Source: Minisyncoccia bacterium (GTDB lineage Bacteria; Patescibacteriota; Minisyncoccia; Phycocordibacterales; DATDWN01). Taken from it: 64,000 bases of DNA. The stretch spans positions 108,610-172,609 of the forward strand of contig JBAQTF010000010.1 of NCBI GenBank assembly GCA_049296855.1, read 5' to 3'. Below the pieces are notes generated by a model. That model was not told the origin of the DNA and did no database searches. It saw only the letters and a list, made by a program, of their open reading frames with translations. Each line of letters starts with the position of its first letter. Position 1 is the stretch's first letter. Positions 44,040 to 59,033 of the stretch are shown piece after piece. Position numbers and translations under genes: made by a program.

Positions 44040-46184
44040 TTGAGCTTTAAGGAAAAGACTTTTCAACAGAAAGGCTGGTTTTTAAAAGACACATTGGTAT
44101 ATAATGTAGGTGTTATATGTCTTTTTAAAAATACCTTGAAAAGTAATAATTTTATTAAGAAAAACTTGGTTATTGTTGCTTTGTTGTTGTCTTTTCTGGT
44201 TCCCCAAAAGAGTCATGCTTATGCTGGAGTTGTAGATGTTGTTATTGACCCAGCCCATATAACAAAATCTGTTATAAATGGAATTCAACTTGCAAAATCA
44301 TTCGCAATGTTTGCTGCGAACACTCTTGCATGGAGATATGCTAAATCACTTGTTCAAGATATAACTGGTTCAACAGTAAATTGGATAAACTCTGGATTCG
44401 AAGGTAATCCAGCATACATAACAGACCCTAGTCAGTTTTTCCTCGATATAGCGGATGATACTGCTGGAGAATTTCTTTCTGGAACAAGGCTAAACGTACT
44501 CTGTACGCCTTTTAGAGGACCAGTTAGATTGGCCCTACTTAATAGCTATCTAAGAAATACTAATAATCAACAATATGCCTGTACATTGTCAAAAATACTA
44601 AACAATTATGACGCCTTTACAAATGATTTCAGTGTCGGAGGATGGGATGGTTGGTTTGAAGTAACTCAAAGTACTGGTGGTAATCCATACTATGTAGCAC
44701 TTTCTACACAAAACGAAATGCTAGATAAAGTTGCTTCTGAACAAACTATCTACAAAGAACAGTCAACACAAAGTGGAGGATTTTTGTCAATGGAGAAATG
44801 TAGACCTGAAGACACAGTAACAGCTGGAAATCAAGCAGCTATGTCAGCTAAATTTGGAAGATCATTAAATGTTGGGGATTGTACTGGTAAAAAAGAAGTG
44901 GTTACACCGGGAAGCGTCATAGCAGACCAACTAAATACTCAACTACCTACGGGAGTACGTTCACTAGAATTAGCTGACTCACTAGGAGAAATAATTAACG
45001 CAGCTATATCAATGCTAACCACAAAAATCCTGGGTCCTGGTCAAGGTCTTCGAGGACTGACTGGTCAATTACCTCCAGGGGCTAGTAGCTCGGGATTTCC
45101 AGTTCTAGACGTAACTGGTGATAACCCAGTGACTCATTATCTAGGTACATTTTATGAAGATGCCAGAGCGACAGCTATTGACATGGAAGATGGTGATATA
45201 ACCAGCAGAATAGTAACAAGTGGAGGTGTTAATTATAATACTATCGGAACTTATAAAATCACGTATAGTGTGACCAATTCTAGAGGCAATACTGCGACCG
45301 CAGTTAGAACAGTCATAGTAAGACCGTTTCAAGAGCCAGGTGCTGGAACTGGAGAGACTTGTGTAGATGGTATCAAAAATCAAGACGAGACAGGAATTGA
45401 TACGGGAGGGATTTGTGGAAGTGGGACTATAGCAACTTGTTCCGATGGTATTAGAAATCAAGATGAAACGGGAATTGATGTTGGTGGGATTTGTGGAATT
45501 GGAAGTTCTGCACCAGTAATAACCTCGATTAGTCCTACAGGAGTTTTACTTGGAGTGGCAACAACAATGACTATTACTGGTAATAACCTAACATCTAGTG
45601 TGCAGTTCACTGATAGTACAGGAAAGGTATTTAATGTAACAGGGACAGTCATAAACGGTGGTACGCAAACTAGAGTATCAGTACCAACAAACCTAGCTCC
45701 TAACGTTACAACTCTAAAAGTATTAAATGGTGGATTTGCATCAAACGCAGTATCATTCATCGTAACTGTATCACCGACTTGTGTCGCCGGATCAAATGAA
45801 ATGTCTTGTGTTGCACCTAACCAAGCTAATCTAGTTTCAGAAGTGATTAAATATTTAATTAGCAAAGGACAAACATTTAACATAAATAACAGTTGTGACT
45901 TCTATGAGATAACTAAACGTGTAGCCTGGGCTCTAAGAAGTACAGACGGCGGATTACTGACAAGTCCTGGTTCTGGATGTAACGCAAATTCTGTTGTCAT
46001 GATAAGTTACATAGATAACTCTCGCGTTAAAATACTATTTTGGGATAACAACGGCTTATTGTTACCAGGTTCTGTCAGATGGGATCCTTTCCCACAAAGT
46101 AACGATGGAAGTATTGTTTATATCCCACCAGTCGATCCAGGTGATCCAGCTAATGCTTGTTACTTAGCAAAAACTCCTTGCTAA
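44040..46184 (+). CDS. large secreted surface protein with an Ig-like domain, two tandem Cys-containing repeats and an IPT/TIG-like domain
   Basis: The motif GTYKITYSVTNSRGNTATAVRTVIV is Ig-like. The repeat CxDGIxNQDETGIDxGGICGxG occurs twice (nt 45361-45516). ITSISPTGV...TITGNNL is IPT-like. The start is uncertain. Confidence 0.55.
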   Translation: MSFKEKTFQQKGWFLKDTLVYNVGVICLFKNTLKSNNFIKKNLVIVALLLSFLVPQKSHAYAGVVDVVIDPAHITKSVINGIQLAKSFAMFAANTLAWRYAKSLVQDITGSTVNWINSGFEGNPAYITDPSQFFLDIADDTAGEFLSGTRLNVLCTPFRGPVRLALLNSYLRNTNNQQYACTLSKILNNYDAFTNDFSVGGWDGWFEVTQSTGGNPYYVALSTQNEMLDKVASEQTIYKEQSTQSGGFLSMEKCRPEDTVTAGNQAAMSAKFGRSLNVGDCTGKKEVVTPGSVIADQLNTQLPTGVRSLELADSLGEIINAAISMLTTKILGPGQGLRGLTGQLPPGASSSGFPVLDVTGDNPVTHYLGTFYEDARATAIDMEDGDITSRIVTSGGVNYNTIGTYKITYSVTNSRGNTATAVRTVIVRPFQEPGAGTGETCVDGIKNQDETGIDTGGICGSGTIATCSDGIRNQDETGIDVGGICGIGSSAPVITSISPTGVLLGVATTMTITGNNLTSSVQFTDSTGKVFNVTGTVINGGTQTRVSVPTNLAPNVTTLKVLNGGFASNAVSFIVTVSPTCVAGSNEMSCVAPNQANLVSEVIKYLISKGQTFNINNSCDFYEITKRVAWALRSTDGGLLTSPGSGCNANSVVMISYIDNSRVKILFWDNNGLLLPGSVRWDPFPQSNDGSIVYIPPVDPGDPANACYLAKTPC

Positions 46185-46246: not shown

Positions 46247-48796
46247 ATGTTTAGAAAAATAACCCAACTAAAATCAGTAGGACATAGCGGTAAAAAATAT
46301 TTCACTCGTGGAGCAATGTCGTTTTTCACTATAGGACTAATACTGGTTATATTTGTGGGAATTTTTAGTCCTGTTGTGAAAATACAAGCACAAGGGATAC
46401 CAGGACAATCATATACAGACATGGGAACTTGTACAGGTAATAATGGAAATTTTAGTGAACGACTGATGCGTGGTGATTGTCAGCAACTGATAGATCAGGG
46501 TATTATTCTTGGAGGAGTGTTCACCCCAGATCCACCTCCACCAGAACCTCCTGCCGCACCAGAACCTCCTAAAACAGACTGTGGTTTTTCTCCATCTACT
46601 TGGACAGATTGTTTCGAAAATGTCATCCAAACCATATTCGTAGCTATACTCAAAATGATGAGTTGGATTACTGGAATCGCTGGTTTACTACTAAACTTTG
46701 TACTGAAGTACACCATTCTAGATATGAAGGTAAATATAGATGGATTAACGGGTATAAACACTGCTTGGAAAATCCTGCGTGATTTGATGAACATTGCATT
46801 TATATTCCTTCTTATATATGAGGGTATAAAAATGATAATAGGACAGAGTAGCACAAATGACGTTAGAAAATTCATCACTGGACTTGTTCTGGCTTCACTT
46901 TTGATAAACTTTAGTTTATTTTTTACCAAAGTGATGATAGATGCATCAAACATTGTTACTATAGGATTCTACCAAGCAATCCTTGTTCCACCTCCCGGTT
47001 CAACTGTTCCTATCGCAGAATATGGGCTCTCTGATCCAATCGCTAGAGCACTGGGACTAGCCGGTTTGTTTGGTGCAACTGGCGATCCAGGTTTTGCTGG
47101 TGGAAACGACATGGGAGGTATACTCATTATGGCTCTTGGATCGGGAATGGTGCTTTTGGTTTCTGCTTTTGTTTTCTTTGCTGTATCTATACTGTTTATT
47201 ATCCGATATATTGCTCTCATAATTCTGATGATGCTATCTCCGATTGCTTATATGGGTATAGCTTTACCTTTTGTAAGTGGTTATGCCAAAGACTGGTGGA
47301 AAGCATTTAATAGTCAGATTATTTTTGGACCAGTCTATATGATTATGACTTGGGTCATACTGACACTTATGTCTAGTCCTGGTTTTGGTATGCAAGGAAG
47401 TTTTGTAAAGTTGTTTAACGATCCAACAAAACCAAGCTTTAGTAACATAGGTCTTCTATTTAATTTTGCTTTAATTATTGGACTTCTCATAGCTTCTCTT
47501 CTTATCGCCAAAAAGGTTTCTTCCAATGGTTCAAATCATATCGCCAATGCAACAAGCAGACTCTCTGCATTTGCTGGTGGAGTGGTAATAGGTGGCGGTG
47601 CAAGACTAATGAGAAACACGGTTGGTAGAGCTGGAGCTGATAGCGCAAACAATGAGGATTTAAAAGAAAGAGCAACGAGAGAAAGATTTGGATTGATAGA
47701 TAAAACCAAGGGAGCTTGGGCCAAAAGCTCACTCGCTGCAGCTAATAAAGCCGCAACAAGTAGTTTTGACGCTCGTGCAACAAGTAGTTTTGAAGGAGTA
47801 GCTAAAGCATCTGGTATGGGTTTTGGAAAAGTTGATGTCAAAAAAGAAAATTTCAAAGCGATTAAAGAAGCTCAAGGAAAAGCTGCTGAAGAAAAAGCAA
47901 AACAATATAAACCAACTGATCTTGCTGTCGAACAAGCTAAAGCAAAACTTAATGAAAAAACTGACGAAGGACAGAAGTTTAGAGATGAAGAGGCGGAGAG
48001 AAAGAGGGCTCATGATATTTATATAAAATCGGATGACTACAAAAATTCTAATGAGTATGAGAATATTCAAAAATTAGAGGATGATAATAGAAGAGATAAA
48101 ATCAAAGTTAGAGATGATAAAGTAGATATCAAATATTCGCAACAAAAACTTGATGACCTAAGAATTAAAATGGACGAATATGCGGAAAATACACCAGAAA
48201 AAACTCAGATTAGAGATAAGATAGATATTCTACAAAAAGAAACTGCCAGAAAACAGGAGTTGCTAAGAGGACTAGAGAATCTTGTTACAAGTCGAGGGGA
48301 TACAATAGATGAGTATGAATTCAACATAGTTAACTATATGTCTGAAGAAAAGAAAGCACTCATTGCAACCGCAGGAGGAACAAAGAACGAGAAAGGCCCA
48401 GGTGGAGTAGATGTGATAAAAGACCAGGCCGGAAATACTGTTGATAGAAAGGTTAAATCTGCATATGAACAAAGAACAGAAGCTACAGCAAGTAGAATTG
48501 AAAACGCTGGACCTATGTGGAGATATGCAGCAAATACTGTTGGAATTGCAGCTAATGTTGTTGGAGTTCCTCTTGTTTCCATTCCAAAAACAAAAGCTGA
48601 CAGAGATGAATTGGCTAGAAGAGTTAGAAAGGCATCGGCTCCGAAAAACGCAGCCCAGCTCCGAAAAGAAGCTGAGAAACTAGAAAAAAAAGAAAGGGTA
48701 GCGAGGGGTGAAAAAGATGAAGATGAGGAAGAAACACCTGAACCAACACCAGCTCCAACACCAACACCAGCTCCAGAAAATCCACCAACAACTTAA
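46247..48796 (+). CDS. VirB6/TrbL-like polytopic membrane protein with a long coiled-coil C-terminal domain
   Basis: It has an N-terminal signal/anchor, a Cys-containing extracytoplasmic loop and about 7 TM helices. The C-terminus is a 400-aa charged coiled-coil that ends in a PT-rich tail. Confidence 0.45.
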   Translation: MFRKITQLKSVGHSGKKYFTRGAMSFFTIGLILVIFVGIFSPVVKIQAQGIPGQSYTDMGTCTGNNGNFSERLMRGDCQQLIDQGIILGGVFTPDPPPPEPPAAPEPPKTDCGFSPSTWTDCFENVIQTIFVAILKMMSWITGIAGLLLNFVLKYTILDMKVNIDGLTGINTAWKILRDLMNIAFIFLLIYEGIKMIIGQSSTNDVRKFITGLVLASLLINFSLFFTKVMIDASNIVTIGFYQAILVPPPGSTVPIAEYGLSDPIARALGLAGLFGATGDPGFAGGNDMGGILIMALGSGMVLLVSAFVFFAVSILFIIRYIALIILMMLSPIAYMGIALPFVSGYAKDWWKAFNSQIIFGPVYMIMTWVILTLMSSPGFGMQGSFVKLFNDPTKPSFSNIGLLFNFALIIGLLIASLLIAKKVSSNGSNHIANATSRLSAFAGGVVIGGGARLMRNTVGRAGADSANNEDLKERATRERFGLIDKTKGAWAKSSLAAANKAATSSFDARATSSFEGVAKASGMGFGKVDVKKENFKAIKEAQGKAAEEKAKQYKPTDLAVEQAKAKLNEKTDEGQKFRDEEAERKRAHDIYIKSDDYKNSNEYENIQKLEDDNRRDKIKVRDDKVDIKYSQQKLDDLRIKMDEYAENTPEKTQIRDKIDILQKETARKQELLRGLENLVTSRGDTIDEYEFNIVNYMSEEKKALIATAGGTKNEKGPGGVDVIKDQAGNTVDRKVKSAYEQRTEATASRIENAGPMWRYAANTVGIAANVVGVPLVSIPKTKADRDELARRVRKASAPKNAAQLRKEAEKLEKKERVARGEKDEDEEETPEPTPAPTPTPAPENPPTT

Positions 48797-48801
48797 AATA
48801 T

Positions 48802-49557
48802 ATGGATAATCAACAAGAAATACCGGAATACATAAAAAATCTACCAAAACCAGTGCAAGATGTAGTTCTTGATGGCGTTTGGGAGAGTAGAACGACTGAA
48901 ATTGCCAAAAAATATGCTCTTAATCCAATTCAGACTGACGGTTTAATAAATTCTGTACTTTTTATTTTAATTGGTCTGGATAAACCTGATGATTTTTTGG
49001 AGAGAATAATTAACGATCTTGGAATATCAAGTCTTCTTGCTGAGCAAATATTGGAAGATGTAAACAATCGAGTATTTGAGTACGCTATAAAAGAAATTGG
49101 TGGTAAAAGTAAATCAGAATTAGCACAAAACATTCCAAGTTCTGTTCCAATTCAATCTAAGACTGTCGAGGGTAGGGTAGAGATAAGACCTGAAAATTTG
49201 CCTAGTAAAAACATCACGACCACGCAAGAAAAACCACCAGCACCAAAATACGTACCAACCTACAAACCAACTGCCACAGTTTTAAACGACCCATCTCTAC
49301 ACCATGAACTACCCAAAGTAGCTCCTGAACCATCACGTATAATATACAAACCCAATGCTTCATCTGAACCCATTCAACAACCAATTCCTGTTCCACGTTT
49401 CGTTCCAAAACCAGTGACAGATATGTCTGCACAGACAGGAACTCTAACTGTACAAACTAGTAAACCACTAGAAACTGTCGCACTAGCTAAGACCGAACAA
49501 AAAGAAAAACCTCCAGAAAGATATACTATCGACCCCTATAGAGAACCAATAGAATAA
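48802..49557 (+). CDS. hypothetical protein with a Pro-rich C-terminal half
   Basis: Only an ORF. It is co-directional with the rest of the cluster. Confidence 0.4.
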   Translation: MDNQQEIPEYIKNLPKPVQDVVLDGVWESRTTEIAKKYALNPIQTDGLINSVLFILIGLDKPDDFLERIINDLGISSLLAEQILEDVNNRVFEYAIKEIGGKSKSELAQNIPSSVPIQSKTVEGRVEIRPENLPSKNITTTQEKPPAPKYVPTYKPTATVLNDPSLHHELPKVAPEPSRIIYKPNASSEPIQQPIPVPRFVPKPVTDMSAQTGTLTVQTSKPLETVALAKTEQKEKPPERYTIDPYREPIE

Positions 49558-49558
49558 A

Positions 49559-49993
49559 ATGAAATACCAAGTACCACAATTTATAGATGTGGAGGACAAA
49601 ATAGTCGGCCCTTTTACTGTAAAACAATTCATTTATGTCGTCGGTGGGGCGGGAATGGCTTTTATTATATACAGATTTCTACCAATATACATATCTGTAA
49701 TACTCTTAGCTGTGACAATCCCTCTTTCTCTAGCACTAGCTTTTTATAAAGTAAATAACAAACCTTTTATTGACTTTCTTGAGTCAGCTTTTCTCTACTA
49801 CACAAAAAACAACTTATACATCTGGAAAAAGGAGGAGAAAAAGATTGCGGAGTCGGAAATCAAAGCGACCAGAATGACACAAGTTCATGTTCCAAGACTT
49901 TCTGACAGTAAATTAAAAGAGCTTTCGTGGTCGCTCGATATTAATGAAAATCTAAATCCACTTACAGGTGATGACGGAAAGAATACCAAATAA
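49559..49993 (+). CDS. PrgI/VirB3-like small membrane protein
   Basis: The protein is 144 aa and has a hydrophobic hairpin (VVGGAGMAFIIY...ILLAVTIPLSLALAF). Its start codon overlaps the stop of the preceding gene, and a VirB4-like gene lies downstream. Confidence 0.4.
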   Translation: MKYQVPQFIDVEDKIVGPFTVKQFIYVVGGAGMAFIIYRFLPIYISVILLAVTIPLSLALAFYKVNNKPFIDFLESAFLYYTKNNLYIWKKEEKKIAESEIKATRMTQVHVPRLSDSKLKELSWSLDINENLNPLTGDDGKNTK

Positions 49994-50070
49994 TTTCTAA
50001 TTTCTAGTTCATTAAAACCGTAGTTTTTAGAAATTGAAAATTAGAAATTACTTTATGTTATAATAAAATC

Positions 50071-50709
50071 ATGACTGCATCTTCAAAAGCAACACAGGAG
50101 TTCGTTCCAATAAAAGAAGTGCGCGACGGCATTATCGTCTTAAAAAGTGGCTCAATGCGAGCTATCGTTCTAGCCTCTTCATTAAACTTCAGTCTAAAGT
50201 CAGAAGACGAGAGAAACGCTATCATATTGCAATTTCAAGATTTTCTTAACTCATTAGACTTTGCAGTACAAATTTCTATAGAGTCCAGACGACTGGATAT
50301 AAGACCGTACTTAGCCCTTTTAGAGGATCGTTACAAAGAACAGATAAATGAACTGATGAAAATCCAGACCAGAGAATACATAGAGTTCGTCAAAAAATTT
50401 ACCGAAACGACAAATATCATGACGAAAAGTTTCTTTGTCGTTGTTTCATATGATCCAGCTATAATAAGCATGAAAAGTGGTATGATGAGCGGTTTATTTC
50501 AGAAAAAGTCTAATGCACAAGAAACCGCTGATAAAAAAGCTGGGTTCGAAGAAAACAAAACTCAACTAGAACAGCGTGTTTCAGTAGTAGAACAGGGCCT
50601 ATCTCGATGTGGAATACGTGTGATAAGACTAGGAACAGAAGAGGTTGTAGAATTGTTCTATAAAATATTTAATCCTGGAGATACGGAGAAACCAATAAAA
50701 GTTAGTTAA
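50071..50709 (+). CDS. hypothetical cytoplasmic protein, possibly an accessory or N-terminal-domain partner of the VirB4-like ATPase
   Basis: A 212-aa ORF lying 9 nt upstream of the ATPase gene. Confidence 0.4.
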   Translation: MTASSKATQEFVPIKEVRDGIIVLKSGSMRAIVLASSLNFSLKSEDERNAIILQFQDFLNSLDFAVQISIESRRLDIRPYLALLEDRYKEQINELMKIQTREYIEFVKKFTETTNIMTKSFFVVVSYDPAIISMKSGMMSGLFQKKSNAQETADKKAGFEENKTQLEQRVSVVEQGLSRCGIRVIRLGTEEVVELFYKIFNPGDTEKPIKVS

Positions 50710-50718
50710 AACAAATTT

Positions 50719-52521
50719 ATGGGAATGTTTGATTTTTTAAAAACAAAAAAAGAAGAATCTCAAATTTCTACTATTCTGCCTCAGACTATTGCTGATTCTT
50801 CTACACTAGAACTGAAAGATATTATTGCTCCAAGTGCCCTAAAAGTCTCCCCAAAGGAGGTCAATCTTGGTGAGAAAGTCCTACGAAGTTTCTTTGTTAT
50901 CTCTTACCCAAGATACCTGTCTGAAAACTGGTTTGCACCAATTATCAATTTAGACAAAGTTTTTGACATTTCCATTTTTATATCACCAATAGAAACGGCT
51001 CAGGTTTTGCGTACCTTTCAAAAAAAAGTAGCTGAAGTTCAGAGCCAGATAAACGCCAGGGAAGCCAAAGGTCTTGTGCGAAACCCAATGCTAGACACAG
51101 CTTATCAGGACCTAGAGAACCTGCGTGATCGACTACAACAAGCTCAGGAGCGTTTATTTGACGTCGGACTATATGTCACTATATACGGAGAATCGGATGG
51201 GGAATTGGACAAAATTGAGTCTGAAATAAAATCCATCCTTGAAGCAAAACTGGTTTATGTAAAACCAGCACTGTTCCAACAGGAACAGGGTTTCAAAACA
51301 ACAATTCCTCTTGGTACTGATGAATTAAAAGTTTACAGTAAACTTAATTCTTCGCCACTTTCATCTCTGTTTCCTTTTGTCTCTTTTGACCTAACATCAG
51401 ACAGGGGAATTCTCTATGGAATAAACAGACACAACTCATCTCTCGTTCTTTTTGATAGATTCTCTCTGGAAAACTACAACTCAATTATATTTGCAAAATC
51501 TGGTTCAGGAAAATCATACTCAACAAAAATTGAGATTCTTCGTACTCTTATGTTTGATACAGATGTTATTGTTATTGACCCAGAAAAAGAATATGAGTAT
51601 TTATCAGAAGCCGTCGGAGGAAGATACTTCAACATTTCACTTAACTCTGAACACCACATCAATCCTTTCGAACTCTCTATTCCTGGAGAAGGAGAATCAT
51701 TCGCTAATGTTTTACGCTCTAACATTATAAATCTGGTTGGGCTTTTCCGTTTGATGATGGGAGGCTTAACCCCAGAGGAAGATGCTATCGTTGACAGGGC
51801 AATAACTGAAACATACGCTTTAAAAGACATCACCGTTGATACAAACTTTGAAAATGTAGAGCCACCACTTATGTCTGACTTTGAACTAGTGCTTTCTGGT
51901 ATGGAGGGAGGAGATTCACTGGCCCAGAGACTGACAAAATACACTAGAGGTACTTGGGCAGGATTTATAAACAGGCCTAGTAATATAGACATAAACAAGA
52001 AATTTGTGGTTTTTTCACTGCGAGATATGGAGGACGAACTCAAGCCTATAGCTATGTACATCATTATGCACTTTATGTGGAATATGATTAGGAAAAAACT
52101 AAAAAAGCGCCTCTTAGTCATTGATGAAGCGTGGTGGATGATGAAGTCGGAAGACACAGCATCTTTCCTACTCTCTCTTGCAAAACGCGGAAGAAAATAT
52201 TATCTAGGACTTGCAACTATCACTCAGGACGTGGATGATTTTATGAAATCCCCATATGGGGTGCCGATTATTACGAACTCTTCTATACAGATTTTACTAA
52301 AACAATCTCCGAGCTCAATAGATAAACTACAACAAACATTTAACCTGACAGATGAGGAAAAATATCTTCTTCTTGAATCAGATGTGGGAGAAGGAATATT
52401 CTTTGCTGGACTAAAGCATGTGGCAATAAAAATTATTGCTTCTTATACAGAGGACCAGATTATAACTTCTGATCCATCACAGATTTTGGCTATAAAAAAA
52501 GCTAAAGCGGATTTGATGTAA
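50719..52521 (+). CDS. VirB4/TraE/PrgJ-like conjugation-type ATPase
   Basis: The N-terminal region (IAPSALKVSPKEV...ISYPRYLSENWFAPIINLD) is typical of Gram-positive VirB4 homologues. It has a Walker A motif (AKSGSGKSY) and a Walker B motif (LLVIDEAWWMM). Confidence 0.75.
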   Translation: MGMFDFLKTKKEESQISTILPQTIADSSTLELKDIIAPSALKVSPKEVNLGEKVLRSFFVISYPRYLSENWFAPIINLDKVFDISIFISPIETAQVLRTFQKKVAEVQSQINAREAKGLVRNPMLDTAYQDLENLRDRLQQAQERLFDVGLYVTIYGESDGELDKIESEIKSILEAKLVYVKPALFQQEQGFKTTIPLGTDELKVYSKLNSSPLSSLFPFVSFDLTSDRGILYGINRHNSSLVLFDRFSLENYNSIIFAKSGSGKSYSTKIEILRTLMFDTDVIVIDPEKEYEYLSEAVGGRYFNISLNSEHHINPFELSIPGEGESFANVLRSNIINLVGLFRLMMGGLTPEEDAIVDRAITETYALKDITVDTNFENVEPPLMSDFELVLSGMEGGDSLAQRLTKYTRGTWAGFINRPSNIDINKKFVVFSLRDMEDELKPIAMYIIMHFMWNMIRKKLKKRLLVIDEAWWMMKSEDTASFLLSLAKRGRKYYLGLATITQDVDDFMKSPYGVPIITNSSIQILLKQSPSSIDKLQQTFNLTDEEKYLLLESDVGEGIFFAGLKHVAIKIIASYTEDQIITSDPSQILAIKKAKADLM

Positions 52522-52541: not shown

Positions 52542-52970
52542 ATGGGAGACGACGCTAAAATAAAAGACACCACACTATTCCTCATGATTGCCGTGGCACT
52601 GTCTTTTGATTTTTTACAAGCACTTATTGGTTGGATTCCAATAGTAGGCAATATTATGTCTGACCTTATGAGTGTTTTTATCTGTTTAACTTTTGTTTTT
52701 TGGTTTATGATGGTTGGGATAAAGATTAGCCAAAAAAGAATTATGGCTTTGGTTGGTGGAGGAGCGGTTGAAATAATTCCTTTTATAAATATACTACCTG
52801 CTTGGACTGCCGTGGTCGTTTATATTGTGGGCACAACAAGAATCAAAGAACTTACTGCCGAACATCCAAAACTAGCCAGAGGTGCAATGGCTGCTGGGGG
52901 TAAAATAAAAAGTATGGCTAAAGGCAAAACGGAAGAGACCGAATCAGAGACTGCGGAAGTAGTTGCTTAA
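52542..52970 (+). CDS. hypothetical 3-4 TM membrane protein
   Basis: Hydrophobic segments are present. Confidence 0.45.
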   Translation: MGDDAKIKDTTLFLMIAVALSFDFLQALIGWIPIVGNIMSDLMSVFICLTFVFWFMMVGIKISQKRIMALVGGGAVEIIPFINILPAWTAVVVYIVGTTRIKELTAEHPKLARGAMAAGGKIKSMAKGKTEETESETAEVVA

Positions 52971-54045
52971 TGTGCATAAATATATAGTGAAAAGTAGGTG
53001 CTATGGTACAATTAGGCTAATGAGAATTTCTATTTTTTCATTGTTAATTCTATGCTTACTCTTCTTCTTTAGTTTTGACGTAAACGTACGAGCCGAAGAC
53101 ACGGTAATGGCTAAAGACAAGATAAATGTCGAGTTAATCCCAGCAATCCCTAAAGCACATGAAATTGTCACTGCTTTTCTAACAAGCTTTATGACGAACA
53201 TAAATGCAGCTGATATCACTTGGAAAATAGATGGTAAAACTCAAAAAACTGGGACTGGTGAGACAAAATTTCAATTTACTTTGAGTAGTATAAATACAAC
53301 CACCAATCTGGAAGTTACAGTCATCACAGCAGAAGGTGAAACTGTAGTAAGTGAGTATAGTATAAAACCTGCTGATATTGACTTGATTTGGCAAGCAAAA
53401 AGTTTTGTCCCACCTTTTTATAAGGGTAAGGCTATTTTTAGTCATCAAAACGAGATTACTTTCGTAGCCGTACCACACATTGCTTCTGGTAGTGGAGAAA
53501 TCCCCGCAAAAAATCTAATCTATAAATGGTCAAAAGACGGCAGAGTGTTAGAAAGTGATTCTGGGTACGGAAAAAACACATTGACTATGACTGGACCGAT
53601 CATATCTCGACCATTCACTATATATGTAGAAGTAACAACACTAAATACACCGGACAAAGGTTTTTCTTTTACAAATATAACTCCAGCCTTACCGTCCATC
53701 GTTTTTTACAAAAAAGATCCACTTTATGGAATTGAATTTCAAAAAGCTTTAAGTGGTATTATAGATATGGGCAATCTAAGTGAGATGGTTATTATTGCAG
53801 AACCTTTTTTCTACGGGACTACAAATGCTGGGGCATCTGAGTTAACATATAAATGGACTGTTAATGGAACAGTTGTAAACAGTGATCCGCGACAAACAGT
53901 GCAAGTCTTTAGAGTAAAAGAAGGGACTTATGGAACTTCAAACATTTCTCTATCGATTGAAAATAGCCTTAAAATATTTCAGTATGTTTCGAGTAATTTT
54001 AAATTAAAGTTTGGAAAATCAACAACAGAAAATGTAGCTTTTTGA
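52963..54045 (+). CDS. hypothetical secreted beta-rich protein
   Basis: It has a signal peptide (from about 53020) and no known motif. Confidence 0.45.
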   Translation: MLNVHKYIVKSRCYGTIRLMRISIFSLLILCLLFFFSFDVNVRAEDTVMAKDKINVELIPAIPKAHEIVTAFLTSFMTNINAADITWKIDGKTQKTGTGETKFQFTLSSINTTTNLEVTVITAEGETVVSEYSIKPADIDLIWQAKSFVPPFYKGKAIFSHQNEITFVAVPHIASGSGEIPAKNLIYKWSKDGRVLESDSGYGKNTLTMTGPIISRPFTIYVEVTTLNTPDKGFSFTNITPALPSIVFYKKDPLYGIEFQKALSGIIDMGNLSEMVIIAEPFFYGTTNAGASELTYKWTVNGTVVNSDPRQTVQVFRVKEGTYGTSNISLSIENSLKIFQYVSSNFKLKFGKSTTENVAF

Positions 54046-54062
54046 TAATATACGACTAAACC

Positions 54063-54905
54063 ATGCAAACTCTATTTACAACAACAGCCCGTCTAACTCT
54101 AGGTCTCCTCATATGTCTTTGTCTGTTTACTACTGTATATGCCACGGATTATGCTGTTTTAGTTAACCTTCCAGGGGTTGGAGCAACAACAAATTTAACC
54201 TCATATGTTCCTGCAATTTTTAAACTCTCCATGGGTATAGCGGCAGCTATGGCTTTTGCTGTACTTACATTTGGTGGAATCGTATATGCAACGTCAGATG
54301 CTATTTCAGGAAAAGATGACGGCAAAAGATATATGGAAAATGCGATTTGGGGACTACTTCTAGTTATTGGGGCTTATGCTATTTTGTGGACAATAAATCC
54401 ACAAATTCTTTCTTTTGAACTAACACTTAAAGCACCAGAAATCAAAGCAGGAGCTTCAAATGTCTCCGACCAAGGAACACCATTAGATGCAGATCAACTA
54501 GGTGATGATGCTCGTATAAGATCCTACTTATCAACAAACGGTGTTTCTGTTAACAGTCCCGCTTGTACAGCAGGAAATACTATTGGATGTACTAATGTAA
54601 ATGCACTCCCTCCTAATGCACAGGCAGCACTTATATACATAAAGGCGAATTGTTCCTGTTCTGTAGTAATAACGGGTGGAACAGAAGGTGGACATAAATC
54701 ACACGGACCCAACCTAGCAGTAGTTGATTTGAGAGCTGATGTTAATTTAAATAAATATATTAATGGAGATGCTAACACACCACCAAACAACACCACTATT
54801 CAAAAGAACGTTAATGGTGCTAATGTACAATTTACATTTGAAACTACTGGTGGTGGTACGGGAGGTACATCATCAGGGCCACATTGGCACACAGTAATAA
54901 ACTAA
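54063..54905 (+). CDS. TrbC/VirB2-like pilin with a C-terminal extension of about 150 aa
   Basis: It has a long signal peptide, two hydrophobic helices separated by a short charged loop, and a Gly/Thr-rich tail. Confidence 0.45.
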   Translation: MQTLFTTTARLTLGLLICLCLFTTVYATDYAVLVNLPGVGATTNLTSYVPAIFKLSMGIAAAMAFAVLTFGGIVYATSDAISGKDDGKRYMENAIWGLLLVIGAYAILWTINPQILSFELTLKAPEIKAGASNVSDQGTPLDADQLGDDARIRSYLSTNGVSVNSPACTAGNTIGCTNVNALPPNAQAALIYIKANCSCSVVITGGTEGGHKSHGPNLAVVDLRADVNLNKYINGDANTPPNNTTIQKNVNGANVQFTFETTGGGTGGTSSGPHWHTVIN

Positions 54906-54906
54906 T

Positions 54907-56130
54907 ATGTCGAAAAAAACTATTATTATAATATCTACAGTACTCGGTCTTCTTTTGATATTTCTAGTTGTTTACTTTTTATTCTTTCAAAGTGGTCCAA
55001 GCACTCCTGGCGGAATAATTTCTGGATTCAAAAGTTTCTTTCCTTTTGGTGGTGATAACCTGCCTCCACCGACCCCCACATCAGAACCAACACCCACACC
55101 TACTCCAACCCATACTCCAAACACAGACTTTACCCAAAAGCTACGCAAACTCTCTACGAACCCCGTGGCTGGGGCTGGGATAGTGGACACCAAAGCCGGA
55201 AGTGTTGTTCGTTATATAGAAAAAGCAACTGGACATATATTTGAAATTGAACTTTTTTCTCCAAAACAAGGTCGTATTTCGAATACCACTATACCAGTAG
55301 TGTACAACGCTATATGGGGCAACAAGAACAACTCCCTAGTTTCGCAATACTTAAAAGATGACAATCGAACAATAGATACTTATTCATTAGCAATAAAAGA
55401 ACTCTCCACAACAACTGAAAACATTGTTTCCGGAGTAGCCCTACCTCTAAATGTAAATCAGGTAAGTGCTTTAGGTGACAGCATTTTCTACCTAGAGCAA
55501 CTAAAAGACTCTTCCGCAGGGTATATTTCAAAATTTGATGGAAGTTCAAAAAAACAAATATGGAATTCGCCACTCTCGGAATTATTATCTCAGTATGTAA
55601 ATACGAAAATAATAGCCCTAACCACTAAACCCCTATCAGATGTAGCGGGATATCTATATTTTGTAGACGCAACAACCGGACAAGTGAAAAAAATCTTGGG
55701 GGATATACTTGGCTTAGCCACTCTGGTAAACGGCTCTGCTTCGCAAGTACTTTATTTAAATCAAGAAAATTCTATTAGCTTAAACCTGTTCAATTCCAAA
55801 GATAACTCTAGAACAAACATCTCCCCGACAACATTTCCAGAAAAATGTGTCTGGAGCAAAAAAGACGAGTCGATTGTTTACTGTGCTGTACCGAAAGGAA
55901 GTCTTAATGGCGAGAGTCTGACAAATTGGTATAAAGGATTTATTTTATACAGTGACGATATTTGGAAATATGATCTAAAAAATAACACTTCGAATATTAT
56001 AGAAGATTTAAATAGTGACTCTGGAGAAAATATTGATGTTATAAAACCAATACTATCCGAAAATGAACAATATCTGGTGTTTATGAATAAGTTAGATAAT
56101 TTTTTATGGAGCTTGGACTTAACTAAGTAG
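54907..56130 (+). CDS. membrane-anchored protein with a PT-rich linker and a beta-rich ectodomain
   Basis: It has an N-terminal TM helix and the linker PTPTSEPTPTPTPTHTP. Confidence 0.45.
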   Translation: MSKKTIIIISTVLGLLLIFLVVYFLFFQSGPSTPGGIISGFKSFFPFGGDNLPPPTPTSEPTPTPTPTHTPNTDFTQKLRKLSTNPVAGAGIVDTKAGSVVRYIEKATGHIFEIELFSPKQGRISNTTIPVVYNAIWGNKNNSLVSQYLKDDNRTIDTYSLAIKELSTTTENIVSGVALPLNVNQVSALGDSIFYLEQLKDSSAGYISKFDGSSKKQIWNSPLSELLSQYVNTKIIALTTKPLSDVAGYLYFVDATTGQVKKILGDILGLATLVNGSASQVLYLNQENSISLNLFNSKDNSRTNISPTTFPEKCVWSKKDESIVYCAVPKGSLNGESLTNWYKGFILYSDDIWKYDLKNNTSNIIEDLNSDSGENIDVIKPILSENEQYLVFMNKLDNFLWSLDLTK

Positions 56131-57208: not shown

Positions 57209-57214
57209 ATTATC

Positions 57215-57352
57215 TAGACTGTGCTCAGTTTAGCCCGGCCTTTTCTTCGGCGTCTAAGTAGAGTGTTTCTTCCAGTCTTTGATGAGCTACGAACAAGAAA
57301 GCCGTGAGATTTAGCTCTTTTTCTTTTTTTTGGTTGATATGTTTGAGACATG
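57215..57352 (-). CDS. rpmH: 50S ribosomal protein L34
   Basis: The translation is [45 protein letters not shown]. It is 45 aa, which is why it is missing from the ORF track. Confidence 0.85.
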
Positions 57353-57456
57353 ATGAATAGAGATTTGTACCATAATTACTGTTAACAACTTATACACATA
57401 TTATTAACATATCCACGACTTTTTAACAAGTACTTTATTTTTTAGTTTTCTATATA
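57353..57456. promoter_or_regulatory. oriC-associated region upstream of dnaA with DnaA-box-like 9-mers
   Basis: TTATACACA is at 57391-57399 and ATATCCACG is at 57410-57418. The region lies between the divergent rpmH and dnaA genes. Confidence 0.5.
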
Positions 57457-58806
57457 ATGGTACCCATGATAGAAAATAAGAAACTCTGGGATAGTGTTTT
57501 AGTTGAGATGGAATTAAATCTTTCTAAACCCAACTTCAACACATGGTTTAAAGACACTCACATAATCAAACATGAAGATGGCACTATCTATCTTGGAGTT
57601 CCAAACACTTTTGTTCAAGACTGGCTCGGAAGTAAGTTCCATAACTCAATACTAAAAGCACTACGTGGTATTTCTCAAAACGTTCAATCTCTACAATATG
57701 TAATTTCAAAAGATGAGGTGAAGGAAAAACAGACACAGGACAAACCAATTCAACAAACAAAAGAGCTACCAATCCAAGATACTTATATAAACAAGGAAGA
57801 TAACCTCAATCCTCGCTATACTTTTGAGAATTTTGTTGTGGGACCGTTCAATGAATTCGCTAATGCAGCCTCTCAAGCAATCATTAAAAAACCTGGGATC
57901 GTATATAATCCTCTTTTTATCTATGGTGGAACCGGTCACGGAAAAACACACCTGATCCAAGCTATTGGAAATCATTTAAAAAATTCGAGTAATAAAAAAG
58001 TCTTTTATACTACTTCAGAAAAGTTTTTTCAGGAGTATGTAAATGCACTTCAACTAAACAAGCCAAACTTTTTTAAAGAAAAATACAGAAAATACGATGT
58101 TCTTATTATGGATGACATCCAGTTTTTCTCTGGGAAAATGCAAGCACAGGAACAACTATTTCATTTATTCAACCATTTATATGAAAACAATAAACAAATC
58201 ATATTTTCGTCAGATAAACACCCCGGTCTCATCCAAGATCTAGAGGAAAGAATGAAATCGAGATTTAGTGCTGGTATGGTTGTGGACATACCCACACCAG
58301 ATAACGAGTCCAGAGTTGCTATTATCAAGTCAAAATCAAGTAATACAGCTTATCCATTCTCAAAAGAAGTTGTGGAGTATCTAGCTTATTCCATTGTTGG
58401 AAATATAAGAGAACTTGAGGGTATTATCAACTCTATTACATGTCAGTCCGAACTTAAAGGACGGGAATTGTCACTATCTGAGGTCAAAAATTTTGTAAAA
58501 AACAACACAAAACCCAAAAAATTAGCCTCTACTAAAGAAGTAGTAAAAACTGTGGCTGAATTCTATAACATAGAAGAGCAACTTATTTATGATAAAACTC
58601 GTAAAAAAGAAGTTATTAAACCCAGACAGATAATAATGTATATCCTACGTGAAGACTTTAACATCTCGTATCCTGCTATAGGAGAGAAGCTTGGTGGGAG
58701 AGACCACACAACAGTCATGCATTCGTGTGAAAAGATAAAAAATGATATGAAGGGTGATGATATGCTTATACAAGAAATAAATCAACTTCGATCTATTTTT
58801 GTGTAA
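57457..58806 (+). CDS. dnaA: chromosomal replication initiator DnaA
   Basis: It has an AAA+ Walker A motif (GGTGHGKTHL) and a C-terminal DNA-binding domain. Confidence 0.95.
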   Translation: MVPMIENKKLWDSVLVEMELNLSKPNFNTWFKDTHIIKHEDGTIYLGVPNTFVQDWLGSKFHNSILKALRGISQNVQSLQYVISKDEVKEKQTQDKPIQQTKELPIQDTYINKEDNLNPRYTFENFVVGPFNEFANAASQAIIKKPGIVYNPLFIYGGTGHGKTHLIQAIGNHLKNSSNKKVFYTTSEKFFQEYVNALQLNKPNFFKEKYRKYDVLIMDDIQFFSGKMQAQEQLFHLFNHLYENNKQIIFSSDKHPGLIQDLEERMKSRFSAGMVVDIPTPDNESRVAIIKSKSSNTAYPFSKEVVEYLAYSIVGNIRELEGIINSITCQSELKGRELSLSEVKNFVKNNTKPKKLASTKEVVKTVAEFYNIEEQLIYDKTRKKEVIKPRQIIMYILREDFNISYPAIGEKLGGRDHTTVMHSCEKIKNDMKGDDMLIQEINQLRSIFV

Positions 58807-59033
58807 AACATTGTTTATATTATGTTGATAAGATATTTATAATATATTAATAAATAAAGGATAGAGTGTGGACGACTTGTTTATTTATTTAAATAGTATT
58901 AGGTTATACACATAGATAACTAATTTATACATGTAGGTATTTTAAAAAAATGGCTTATAATATAGATATATTATAAATATCCACAATTACACACCTATAG
59001 TAATAATTAGATCTTAAAAAAACAAAAAATATT
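58807..59033. promoter_or_regulatory. oriC / AT-rich DNA unwinding region with DnaA boxes between dnaA and dnaN
   Basis: TTATACACA is at 58904-58912, aTATCCACA is at 58977-58985 and TTACACACC is at 58987-58995. The region is extremely AT-rich. Confidence 0.55.

What the first reader, a model, noticed from the sequence alone, without database searches (positions are those of the whole stretch)
54063..54905. Pilin-like protein (TrbC/VirB2 topology) with an unusual Gly/Thr-rich C-terminal extension of 150 aa
A signal peptide is followed by two hydrophobic helices separated by a short charged loop (...GKDDGKRY...). That is the hallmark of T4SS pilins. Such pilins normally end after the second helix. 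Here a long GT-rich tail follows (TGGTEGG...GGGTGGTSSG). The tail could be a surface-displayed domain or a processing substrate.
Basis: inference. Interest (0 to 1): 0.6.

Follow-up and report, generated by a model that had tools for sequence, protein, structure and literature searches.

The report
Secretion-system pilin fused to wall-cutting enzyme
This gene from an ultrasmall Patescibacteria bacterium joins a type IV secretion pilin-like membrane stem to a folded, probably zinc-dependent, Hedgehog/DD-peptidase-like domain, so the "Gly/Thr-rich tail" is likely a cell-wall-cutting enzyme head, an arrangement I did not find described for these systems.

Summary
The ORF 54063-54905 (+, 280 aa) is real. 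An identical protein is deposited for a Minisyncoccia (Patescibacteria/CPR) MAG. That signal is below Pfam's cut-off here but clear in orthologues. The gene sits in a conserved VirB6-PrgI/VirB3-TraC-like-VirB4 cluster next to yidC/dnaA.

The "Gly/Thr-rich tail" reading is wrong. Residues ~136-280 form a conserved globular domain (AlphaFold pLDDT 93) with invariant T207, H211, H214, D222, H274 and H276, near-invariant E260 and four conserved Cys. A sub-family with canonical spacing matches only Hedgehog N-terminal structures in the PDB (E 0.002; hhalign 95%). A second, divergent pilin-fused domain in the same genomic slot also matches only Hedgehog (E 0.007). The residue pattern is that of LAS / Hh-DD-peptidase (M15-type) zinc peptidases.

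Foldseek found no structural match, and no curated family threshold is reached, so the enzyme assignment is probable rather than proven. At least 746 sequence clusters carry the domain, nearly always directly after the pilin module.

Best reading: a T4SS-tethered, extracytoplasmic peptidoglycan peptidase, possibly the missing VirB1 analogue. New variant of known kinds. Interest 0.62.

The parts
54063..54905 (+). Complete ORF (280 aa + TAA): pilin::LAS-like peptidase fusion
   Evidence: identical protein in NCBI; 17 nt after the upstream gene's stop; the next gene's ATG follows 1 nt after its own stop
54063..54143 (+). Signal peptide, residues 1-27 (…LFTTVYA | TDYAVL)
   Evidence: Hydrophobic segment 3-34; poorly conserved (24% mean identity), followed by the invariant Y30 and the L33/L36/P37 motif. 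The cleavage site is inferred.
54144..54428 (+). VirB2-like T4SS pilin module, residues 28-122: TM1 49-77 (54207-54293), loop SDAISGKDDGKRYMEN 78-93 (54294-54341), TM2 94-116 (54342-54410), ending in the conserved TINP motif
   Evidence: PF18895 hit at residues 51-101; 43/43 homologues match PF18895; helices 45-77 and 84-111 in the model; hydropathy; 57% mean identity
54411..54482 (+). Flexible linker, residues ~117-140
   Evidence: pLDDT 47-66; 25% mean identity and variable length among homologues
54483..54902 (+). C-terminal globular domain, residues ~141-280: Hedgehog/DD-peptidase (LAS)-like, predicted zinc hydrolase. Conserved Cys168, 176, 197, 199.
   Evidence: pLDDT 92.9, pTM 0.88; invariant residues; Hedgehog-only PDB hits via sub-family A4 and sister family A6; hhalign 95%
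54672..54728 (+). Metal-site motif T204-GGTEGGH211-KS-H214-GPNLAVV-D222, aligning to Shh VTEGWDEDGHH..SLH141YEGRAVD148
54840..54842 (+). E260, candidate catalytic glutamate (Shh E177 position, 'YYE')
   Evidence: 42/43 conserved; aligned with Shh YYE (sister family) and in the non-significant full-family alignment
54843..54878 (+).
   Evidence: Absent or shortened in many homologues, e.g. …LEGDHWH; lowest entropy of the protein
54882..54890 (+). H274-W-H276 (HxH motif)
   Evidence: Both His invariant in 43/43; 205 of 207 diverse domains end in H-x-H
46247..52521 (+). Upstream T4SS core genes of the same cluster: VirB6/TrbL_3-like (46247-48796), 251-aa ORF, PrgI/VirB3 (49559-49993), TraC-like (50071-50709), VirB4 ATPase (50719-52521)
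   Evidence: Pfam; collinear orthologues in L001/L003
52542..56130 (+). Conserved unknown neighbours flanking the fusion gene: 142-aa ORF (52542-52970), 360-aa ORF (52963-54045), 407-aa ORF (54907-56130)
   Evidence: Same order in L001, L003, L006, 43-61% identity; no Pfam hit

Best explanation
The gene encodes a two-module envelope protein of the chromosomal type IV secretion system of a Paceibacteria-type Patescibacterium.

Module 1 (residues 28-122) is a VirB2-like pilin hairpin. After Sec export and signal-peptide cleavage it sits in the membrane with both ends outside and the GKDDGKRY loop inside. From there it can dock to, or be extracted by, the VirB3/VirB4/VirB6 machine encoded just upstream.

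Module 2 (residues ~141-280) is held on a ~25-residue flexible linker outside the membrane. It is a disulfide-stabilised LAS-type (Hedgehog/DD-peptidase, MEROPS M15-like) zinc hydrolase. H214, D222 and H276 (or H274) would bind Zn2+. E260 with H211/H274 would activate water. The likely substrate is the peptide stems or cross-links of peptidoglycan.

I propose it supplies the local cell-wall opening that VirB1/PrgK-type hydrolases supply in other T4SSs. The target would be the bacterium's own wall, and/or the wall of the host cell it attaches to if the pilin polymerises and carries the enzyme outward.

Shown: the ORF, its conservation, the pilin-family signal, the synteny, a folded C-domain, the invariant residue set, and specific but modest sequence similarity to Hedgehog-N/M15. 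Inferred: zinc binding, catalysis, peptidoglycan as substrate, topology, and the role in the T4SS.
For: (1) Pilin module. PF18895 matches at E 5e-4 here and in 43/43 homologues, best E 4.7e-12. Two long helices are modelled, and a signal peptide plus two TM segments are present.

(2) T4SS context. PrgI, a VirB4-type ATPase and TrbL_3/TraC-like orthologues lie immediately upstream. The whole 14-gene block up to dnaA/dnaN is collinear in three other genomes. No other pilin is found in the 64-kb window with the family HMM.

(3) The C-domain is a real domain. pLDDT is 92.9 and pTM 0.88. phmmer finds 746 cluster representatives at E<=1e-3.

(4) Catalytic-type constellation. T207, H211, H214, D222, H274 and H276 are invariant, and E260 is conserved in 42/43. 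205 of 207 diverse domains end in HxH. 20 have exactly the Shh spacing H-x5-H-x6-D.

(5) Link to LAS enzymes.
- The profile of the canonical-spacing sub-family (A4) hits 23 Hedgehog-N chains and nothing else relevant in the PDB, E 0.002.
- hhalign of A4 against a Hedgehog profile gives Prob 95.2%, E 2.5e-8.
- Peptidase_M15_4 hits span 66 of 70 model positions at E 1.5e-3.
- A sister family of pilin-fused domains in the same genomic slot independently hits only Hedgehog-N, E 0.007 over ~85 residues, and hhalign gives 69%.
- The A4 members are unambiguous homologues of the window's C-domain alone (E 1e-13 to 1e-14).

(6) The order of secondary-structure elements is helix, strand (ITGG), metal loop, strand (VVDL), helix, strands (…FE), strand (HWHTVI). 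It follows the sequence order seen in the Hedgehog alignments.

(7) Four conserved Cys and the topology argue for an extracytoplasmic location.

(8) Published surveys report that most Patescibacteria with VirB2-like pilins lack a recognisable VirB1 (PMC12102498).
Against: - The window protein itself gets no Pfam, NCBIfam or PDB sequence hit for its C-domain.
- The broad family profile is only weakly similar to Hedgehog: hhalign 36% and 1.9% with 207 sequences.
- No curated threshold is reached by any member (M15_4 19.5 bits against 25; HH_signal 16.6 against 22.1).
- PHROGs and NCBIfam gave nothing.
- Spacing here is H-x7-D, not the canonical H-x6-D.
- The significant alignments cover mostly the metal-loop region (34-85 residues).
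- The inter-helix loop is not net positive (3 K/R against 4 D/E), so the topology rests on the signal peptide and on analogy.
- Nothing tests zinc binding, activity, substrate or pilus formation.
Confidence: 0.6

Rival explanations
1. The pilin hairpin and the enzyme-like head are as described, but the head is a non-catalytic binding module. Like Hedgehog-N acting as a ligand, it would serve as an adhesin that recognises a host cell-wall or surface structure, at the membrane or on a pilus.
For: The closest detectable relatives are Hedgehog-N signalling domains. The fusion gene is the most divergent gene of the cluster: 41-45% identity against 88-91% for VirB4. Two very different head families occupy the same genomic slot, as expected for host-recognition proteins.
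Against: Every residue needed for LAS catalysis is invariant or nearly so across sequences that are ~40% identical. That pattern is typical of active enzymes, whereas pseudo-enzymes such as Drosophila Hh lose these residues (PMC6027127). Binding and catalysis are also not mutually exclusive.
Confidence: 0.13
2. The C-terminal domain is a previously undescribed metal-binding fold. Its H/H/D/E/HxH pattern resembles LAS enzymes only by convergence, and its activity is something other than a peptidoglycan peptidase.
For: There is no structural neighbour by Foldseek despite pLDDT 93. There is no Pfam, NCBIfam or PHROG family. The domain has an extra Cys-rich N-terminal sub-domain and a beta-hairpin that are absent from the Hedgehog alignment.
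Against: Two independent profiles (A4 and A6) each retrieve only Hedgehog-N out of 177,635 PDB sequences. hhalign gives 95%. Peptidase_M15_4 aligns end to end. The order of motifs and secondary-structure elements is the LAS order.
Confidence: 0.15
3. The protein is a precursor. The linker is cleaved, releasing a soluble wall hydrolase (or a diffusible factor), and the freed ~95-residue pilin then assembles into an ordinary VirB2-type pilus.
For: The linker is disordered and poorly conserved. T4SS pilins of other systems are C-terminally processed (established knowledge of TrbC/VirB2). Stand-alone secreted versions of the domain exist.
Against: No conserved cleavage motif is visible in the linker. 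The fusion is kept in 215 of 241 proteins that carry the domain, and most of the rest are fragments. No dedicated maturation peptidase is recognisable in the cluster.
Confidence: 0.08
4. One reading: an ordinary T4SS pilin carrying a low-complexity Gly/Thr-rich tail.
For: G+T is mildly enriched, and a 12-residue Gly/Thr loop exists.
Against: The domain is folded at pLDDT 93. It has invariant polar and catalytic-type residues and conserved cysteines. Its entropy is close to background.
Confidence: 0.03

Closest known systems
VirB2-like pilins of Patescibacteria T4SS (Pfam PF18895 T4SS_pilin; Wang et al. 2023, PMC10633639; Quinonero-Coronel et al. 2025, PMC12102498)
   Same: Signal peptide plus helical hairpin. 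The PF18895 signal is present. The gene lies next to virB4, prgI and virB6 homologues, close to dnaA, in a chromosome without a recognisable relaxase nearby.
   Different: These pilins are described as small proteins, often in arrays of 2-11 divergent copies. Here a single copy is seen in the window, and it carries a 145-residue enzyme-like domain after the second helix. The papers I could search do not mention such a fusion.
Hh/DD-peptidase (LAS) zinc hydrolases: Sonic hedgehog N-domain, bacterial Hh-like proteins, MEROPS M15 D-Ala-D-Ala and L-Ala-D-Glu peptidases (PMC6027127)
   Same: A strand, then a His-bearing loop, H-x6/7-D, a helix, a Glu, and an HxH at the C-terminal strand. All the equivalents of Shh H135, H141, D148, E177, H181 and H183 are conserved.
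   Different: H-x7-D instead of H-x6-D in this protein's sub-family. Only 2 residues separate the first two His, against 5 in Shh. There is an extra Cys-rich N-terminal sub-domain and a variable Gly/Thr loop before HxH. Shh's acidic Ca-site residues (E127, D130, D132, recalled rather than tested) fall where this protein has TGGTEGG, which is mostly Gly/Thr. No curated model threshold is met, and there is no Foldseek hit.
T4SS cell-wall hydrolases: VirB1 (lytic transglycosylase) and the membrane-anchored PrgK / TraG(pIP501) / TcpG enzymes of Gram-positive systems
   Same: An extracytoplasmic wall hydrolase encoded inside a T4SS cluster and tethered to the membrane. The proposed role is the same (inference; background).
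   Different: A different catalytic class: LAS metallopeptidase rather than SLT, CHAP or muramidase. A different anchor: a pilin hairpin rather than a single TM helix. No homology was detected.
F-type and T-type conjugative pilins (TraA, VirB2, TrbC; PF04956)
   Same: Two-helix membrane topology with a short cytoplasmic loop. Weak PF04956 hits appear in 4 of 43 relatives.
   Different: No PF04956 hit for this protein. No PDB pilin is retrieved by the family profile. Known pilins end shortly after helix 2 or are cyclised, and none carries an enzyme domain (own knowledge).

Membership tests
T4SS_pilin (PF18895), VirB2-like pilins of Patescibacteria | Match to the Pfam model at or above the gathering score (26.6 bits) | tested here: inconclusive
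   The window protein scores 20.5 bits, E 5e-4, below the cut-off. Orthologues pass, e.g. P0080 44.6 bits and P0091 37.6 bits, and 43/43 match at E<=0.1.
T4SS_pilin (PF18895), VirB2-like pilins of Patescibacteria | Signal peptide followed by two hydrophobic helices joined by a short polar loop | tested here: met
   Hydropathy segments 3-34, 49-78 and 93-116; helices 45-77 and 84-111
T4SS_pilin (PF18895), VirB2-like pilins of Patescibacteria | Encoded with VirB4, VirB3/PrgI and VirB6 homologues | tested here: met
T4SS_pilin (PF18895), VirB2-like pilins of Patescibacteria | Small protein ending soon after the second helix | tested here: not met
   164 further residues follow TM2, 140 of them a folded domain
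T4SS_pilin (PF18895), VirB2-like pilins of Patescibacteria | Polymerises into an extracellular pilus | not testable with these tools
   Needs microscopy or biochemistry
TrbC/VirB2 (PF04956) | Match to the Pfam model | tested here: not met
   No hit for the window protein at E<=10. 4 of 43 relatives hit at E>=0.014, below the cut-off.
LAS / Hh-DD-peptidase zinc hydrolases (MEROPS M15, Hedgehog-N) | H-x(6)-D zinc-ligand motif | tested here: inconclusive
   The window protein has H214-x7-D222, one residue longer. 170 of 207 relatives share this spacing, while 20 have H-x5-H-x6-D exactly as in Shh.
LAS / Hh-DD-peptidase zinc hydrolases (MEROPS M15, Hedgehog-N) | H-x-H motif near the C-terminus | tested here: met
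   H274-W-H276, invariant in 43/43; 205 of 207 domains
LAS / Hh-DD-peptidase zinc hydrolases (MEROPS M15, Hedgehog-N) | Catalytic Glu shortly before HxH (Shh E177) | tested here: met
   E260 is conserved in 42/43. It lies 13 residues before H274 here, but only 2-3 residues before in relatives that lack the Gly/Thr loop.
LAS / Hh-DD-peptidase zinc hydrolases (MEROPS M15, Hedgehog-N) | Significant sequence/profile similarity to family members | tested here: inconclusive
   Direct tests are negative: no hit for the window protein, and the family profile A3 gets no LAS hit in the PDB and hhalign 36%. Tests via homologous sub-families are positive: A4 against the PDB returns Hedgehog only, E 0.002; hhalign gives 95.2%; A6 against the PDB returns Hedgehog only, E 0.007. 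Pfam M15_4 and HH_signal stay below their cut-offs.
LAS / Hh-DD-peptidase zinc hydrolases (MEROPS M15, Hedgehog-N) | Hedgehog/DD-peptidase fold | tested here: inconclusive
LAS / Hh-DD-peptidase zinc hydrolases (MEROPS M15, Hedgehog-N) | Binds Zn2+ and hydrolyses a peptide bond of peptidoglycan | not testable with these tools
   Biochemistry is required
VirB1 / Gram-positive T4SS peptidoglycan hydrolases | SLT, CHAP or muramidase catalytic domain | tested here: not met
   No such Pfam domain in this protein or in any gene of the cluster. It can therefore be only a functional analogue.

The most novel reading that the evidence does not exclude
The fusion protein is the major subunit of a conjugative-type pilus, and every subunit displays an active wall-degrading metallopeptidase on a flexible tether. 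This would be an enzymatically armed T4SS filament. Ultrasmall epibiotic Patescibacteria would use it to digest a path through their own wall and into the host's. The interchangeable enzyme heads (two divergent LAS families in the same genomic slot) would be tuned to the host's peptidoglycan chemistry.
Probability: 0.2. Interest if true: 0.85.

Novelty: new variant of a known kind. Interest (0 to 1): 0.62.

Why it matters
Patescibacteria make up a large share of bacterial diversity, and most appear to live attached to other cells. In the one genetically tractable species, the T4SS and its pilins are essential for epibiotic growth, yet what the system does is unknown (PMC10633639, PMC12857230). 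Surveys found VirB2-like pilins but usually no VirB1-type wall hydrolase (PMC12102498).

A pilin that carries its own wall-cutting enzyme would fill that gap for the Paceibacteria-type clusters. It would give a concrete, testable handle: one small domain and three or four point mutants. It would address how these cells get a secretion machine through a Gram-positive-type wall and perhaps into a host. It also defines a sizeable domain family (at least 746 clusters at 50% identity) that current Pfam, NCBIfam and PHROG models do not cover. Finally, it extends the bacterial side of the Hedgehog/DD-peptidase family.

Tried and rejected
- Pfam and NCBIfam on the protein and on its C-half alone gave only a sub-threshold pilin hit and noise: DUF3810, Tsi3, SpaA_4, SecY2 and a deacetylase.
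- phmmer and profile searches of the PDB with the full protein, the C-domain, A1 and A3 gave nothing relevant. The CpaF hits at E~1 reflect a chance 'ISGGTGSGKT' resemblance to ITGGTEGGH.
- Foldseek of the full-length model returned histidine kinases at E>=0.05. That is an artefact of a helical hairpin followed by an alpha/beta domain.
- Foldseek of the C-domain model against the PDB and BFVD gave no significant hit.
- tblastn of a canonical-motif domain against 50,697 phage genomes gave only chance-level hits.
- PHROGs and NCBIfam on the A4 members gave nothing.
- A profile search of the 5.8-billion-protein set with A3 returned only the same family plus short stand-alone relatives without Pfam annotation. 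It gave no bridge to annotated M15 proteins.
- A search for a second pilin in the window with a family HMM found none. A more general PF18895 scan of all small ORFs was not run.
- DnaA-box counting across the window is not above chance.
- I considered and rejected a low-complexity or S-layer-like Gly/Thr tail, and a mis-called or fused ORF. Homologues of the same length, and synteny in four genomes, argue against an assembly artefact.
Full report
**The observation**

An ATG-to-TAA ORF occupies exactly 54063-54905 on the + strand and encodes 280 aa. It starts 17 nt after the stop of the upstream gene. The next gene's ATG follows one base after its stop, so it is packed in an operon. The identical protein is deposited as a hypothetical protein of a Minisyncoccia MAG, and 113 further homologues were found at E<=1e-3. 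Most are 260-330 aa and cover 90-100% of the query. They are named, where named at all, as Parcubacteria, Paceibacterota or Zambryskibacteria proteins, in two cases as 'pilin'. Minisyncoccia is a class of the phylum Minisyncoccota, i.e. Patescibacteria/CPR. The window has 34-40% GC throughout.

**N-terminal half**

Hydropathy gives three segments: 3-34, 49-78 and 93-116. The loop SDAISGKDDGKRYMEN lies between the last two. AlphaFold2 with a 43-sequence alignment models helices 45-77 and 84-111.

Pfam T4SS_pilin (PF18895) matches residues 51-101 at E 5e-4 and 20.5 bits, below the 26.6-bit cut-off. All 43 aligned homologues match the same model, the best at 4.7e-12, and several exceed the cut-off. 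It matches only four relatives, weakly. A family profile finds no solved pilin in the PDB.

**Context**

Upstream on the same strand lie:
- a VirB6/TrbL_3-type polytopic protein (46247-48796),
- a 251-aa ORF,
- PrgI/VirB3 (49559-49993),
- a TraC-like protein (50071-50709),
- a VirB4-type ATPase (50719-52521),
- two unknown ORFs.

Downstream lie a 407-aa unknown ORF, then yidC and rnpA on the other strand, then dnaA and dnaN.

The whole block is collinear in three other genomes (L001, L003, L006). The exception is the 142-aa ORF, which matched only L003 in BLASTP. BLASTP against L001 and L003 gives 88-91% identity for VirB4, 84% for DnaA, 79-81% for the TraC-like protein, and only 41-45% for the fusion protein.

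This is the origin-proximal chromosomal T4SS of Patescibacteria described by Quinonero-Coronel et al. 2025 (PMC12102498). With a family-specific HMM, no second pilin is found anywhere in the 64-kb window.

**C-terminal half: not a tail**

Composition is only mildly skewed. G+T is 22.7% against 13.2% in background, and 3.6% of background windows reach that value. Asn is the commonest residue, and entropy is 3.9 against 4.1 bits.

In the alignment (A1), T207, H211, H214, D222, H274 and H276 are invariant. E208, E260, W275 and Cys168/176/197/199 are nearly so.

Modelled alone with 67 sequences, residues 136-280 give pLDDT 92.9 and pTM 0.88. The element order is helix, short strand, helix 49-62, strand 66-70, loop, strand 85-89, helix 92-99, hairpin 110-125, strand 139-144 in domain numbering.

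TGGTEGGH is the best-conserved motif. GGGTGGTSSG is a variable loop between E260 and H274 that many relatives lack, e.g. …FILEGDHWHVP.

**What the domain is**

Direct searches fail. The window protein's C-domain gets no Pfam, NCBIfam or PDB hit, and the family profile A3 gets none either.

Some family members have a longer first loop with the classical S-x-H-x-x-G-x-A-x-D sequence. These give weak hits to Peptidase_M15_4 (E 1.5e-3, spanning 66 of 70 model positions) and to HH_signal (E 7e-3). One of them retrieves Sonic hedgehog structures at E 0.12.

A profile of 22 such domains (A4) retrieves 23 Hedgehog N-domain sequences at E 0.002-0.03. The only other hit is a single S-layer chain at E 1.4. 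hhalign of A4 gives Prob 89% against the ShhN sequence. Against a 26-sequence Hedgehog profile it gives Prob 95.2%, E 2.5e-8. These A4 proteins are clear homologues of the window's C-domain on its own (E 1e-13 to 1e-14 over residues 2-143), so the link is transitive.

The residue mapping is:

| Window protein | Shh equivalent | Role in Shh |
|---|---|---|
| H211 | H135 | |
| H214 | H141 | Zn ligand |
| D222 | D148 | Zn ligand |
| E260 | E177 | catalytic |
| H274 | H181 | |
| H276 | H183 | Zn ligand |

The Zn-ligand and E177 roles are taken from PMC6027127; the H135 and H181 numbering is recalled, not found in that paper. The paper gives H-x6-D plus H-x-H as the defining motif of Hh/DD-peptidases.

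In a sample of 207 diverse domains, 205 end in H-x-H. 170 have H-x2-H-x7-D, as here, and 20 have H-x5-H-x6-D, exactly as in Shh.

**An independent line**

About 30 hits share only the pilin part (50-65% identical) and carry another C-domain: W-x-ITEAYPP…H…CH-x2-GTC-I-DA … YEV … HF(S/H)V. This domain has no Pfam hit. Its profile (A6) again retrieves only Hedgehog N-domains from the PDB (22 of 22 hits, E 0.007). The alignment runs ~85 residues, from the preceding helix through the metal loop, the next helix and the YE. hhalign gives 69% against Hedgehog and 52% against A3 over 110 columns.

The gene sits in the same slot of the same cluster. Two divergent Hedgehog/DD-peptidase-like heads are therefore found on one conserved pilin stem at one locus.

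**Caveats**

- Foldseek found nothing significant for either model in the PDB or BFVD. M15A and M23 phage proteins appear only at E~0.7.
- The broad family profile is only weakly similar to Hedgehog: 36%, and 1.9% with 207 sequences, although that alignment places H..D, E and HxH correctly.
- PHROGs and NCBIfam give nothing.
- I rate the LAS-type assignment at about 0.75 and peptidoglycan as substrate at about 0.55.

**Architecture and spread**

phmmer of the C-domain against 1.84 billion cluster representatives gives 746 hits at E<=1e-3 and 177 at E<=1e-10. Of the 241 proteins in hand that carry the domain, 215 also match the pilin HMM immediately upstream, and most of the rest are fragments. 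Most longer proteins (up to 677 aa) also have the pilin module directly before the domain. P0199 and P0211 matched neither pilin model.

A few ~150-aa secreted stand-alone versions ending in HWD exist. One lies on a 1.8-Mb contig among ordinary metabolic genes.

Within the fusion, mean identity to the window protein is 57% for the pilin part, 25% for the linker and 42% for the head.

**Mechanism proposed**

The steps are as follows.
1. Sec export and signal-peptide cleavage leave the hairpin in the membrane with both ends outside, as in VirB2 topology (inferred).
2. The head, with two probable disulfides, hangs on a ~25-residue disordered linker (pLDDT 47-66).
3. As a LAS zinc peptidase it would cut peptidoglycan peptides next to the T4SS.

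This would replace the VirB1/PrgK-type hydrolase, which is not recognisable in the cluster and is reported missing from most Patescibacteria with VirB2-like pilins.

Whether the protein stays in the membrane or polymerises into a pilus coated with enzyme cannot be decided here. The fast evolution of the head and the exchange of head families would fit action on a host's wall.

**Literature**

I searched for VirB2, Patescibacteria, peptidoglycan, PF18895 and pilin fusions. I also read the main Patescibacteria T4SS papers and a 2025 T4SS review. None describes a pilin-hydrolase fusion. The library searched is incomplete, so prior description elsewhere cannot be excluded.

**Verdict**

- The feature is a conserved pilin::Hedgehog/DD-peptidase-like fusion. 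This is a new architectural variant built from two known kinds of module, plus a domain family not covered by current libraries.
- Interest is 0.62.

Noticed in passing
related proteins P0086-P0114; locus L006 10001-10861: A second family of pilin fusions has a different C-domain (ITEAYPP…CH..GTCIDA…YEV…HFSVY/HFHIK) in the same syntenic slot. It has no Pfam hit, but its profile retrieves only Hedgehog-N structures (E 0.007). The enzyme head looks exchangeable on a conserved pilin stem.
   Followed up: partly
proteins P0256, P0258/P0259, P0261-P0265; locus L005 6001-6489: Stand-alone secreted ~150-aa relatives of the C-domain end in H-W-D instead of H-W-H. One lies on a 1.8-Mb contig among ordinary metabolic genes, so it is probably not a Patescibacterium. 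The domain family therefore extends beyond the pilin fusion.
   Followed up: partly
window 54063-54905 compared with 50719-52521 and 57457-58806: The fusion gene is the most divergent gene of the conserved cluster: 41-45% identity to L001/L003 orthologues, against 88-91% for VirB4 and 84% for DnaA. That is the pattern expected for a surface-exposed or host-facing protein.
   Followed up: partly
window 36723-37847 (-): A separate cell-wall hydrolase with two LysM domains plus Peptidase_M23 (another LAS-type enzyme) lies about 6 kb upstream of the T4SS cluster on the opposite strand.
   Followed up: no
window 44040-46184 (+): A 714-aa protein with a Bact_surface_Ig-like domain (E 7e-20) sits at the head of the T4SS cluster. 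Orthologues are in the same position in L001, L003 and L006. It may be a surface adhesin of the system.
   Followed up: no
window 54907-56130 (+) and 52963-54045 (+): Two conserved unknown proteins flank the fusion gene in all four genomes. One is 407 aa with an N-terminal TM helix and a Pro/Thr-rich linker (PTPTSEPTPTPTPTHTP). The other is 360 aa with an N-terminal hydrophobic segment. Neither has a Pfam hit.
   Followed up: no
window 58807-59033 (dnaA-dnaN spacer) and 57209-57456: This is the most AT-rich stretch of the window (GC 0.28 for 58-60 kb). It has three 8/9 matches to the DnaA box in the dnaA-dnaN spacer and one upstream of dnaA, so it is plausibly oriC. The window-wide count of such matches is not above chance.
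   Followed up: partly
window 52542-52970 / 52963-54045: The 142-aa and 360-aa ORFs overlap by 8 nt. The listed TTG start of the 360-aa ORF is probably too far upstream, because a Met followed by a hydrophobic stretch (MRISIFSLLILC) lies 19 codons in.
   Followed up: no
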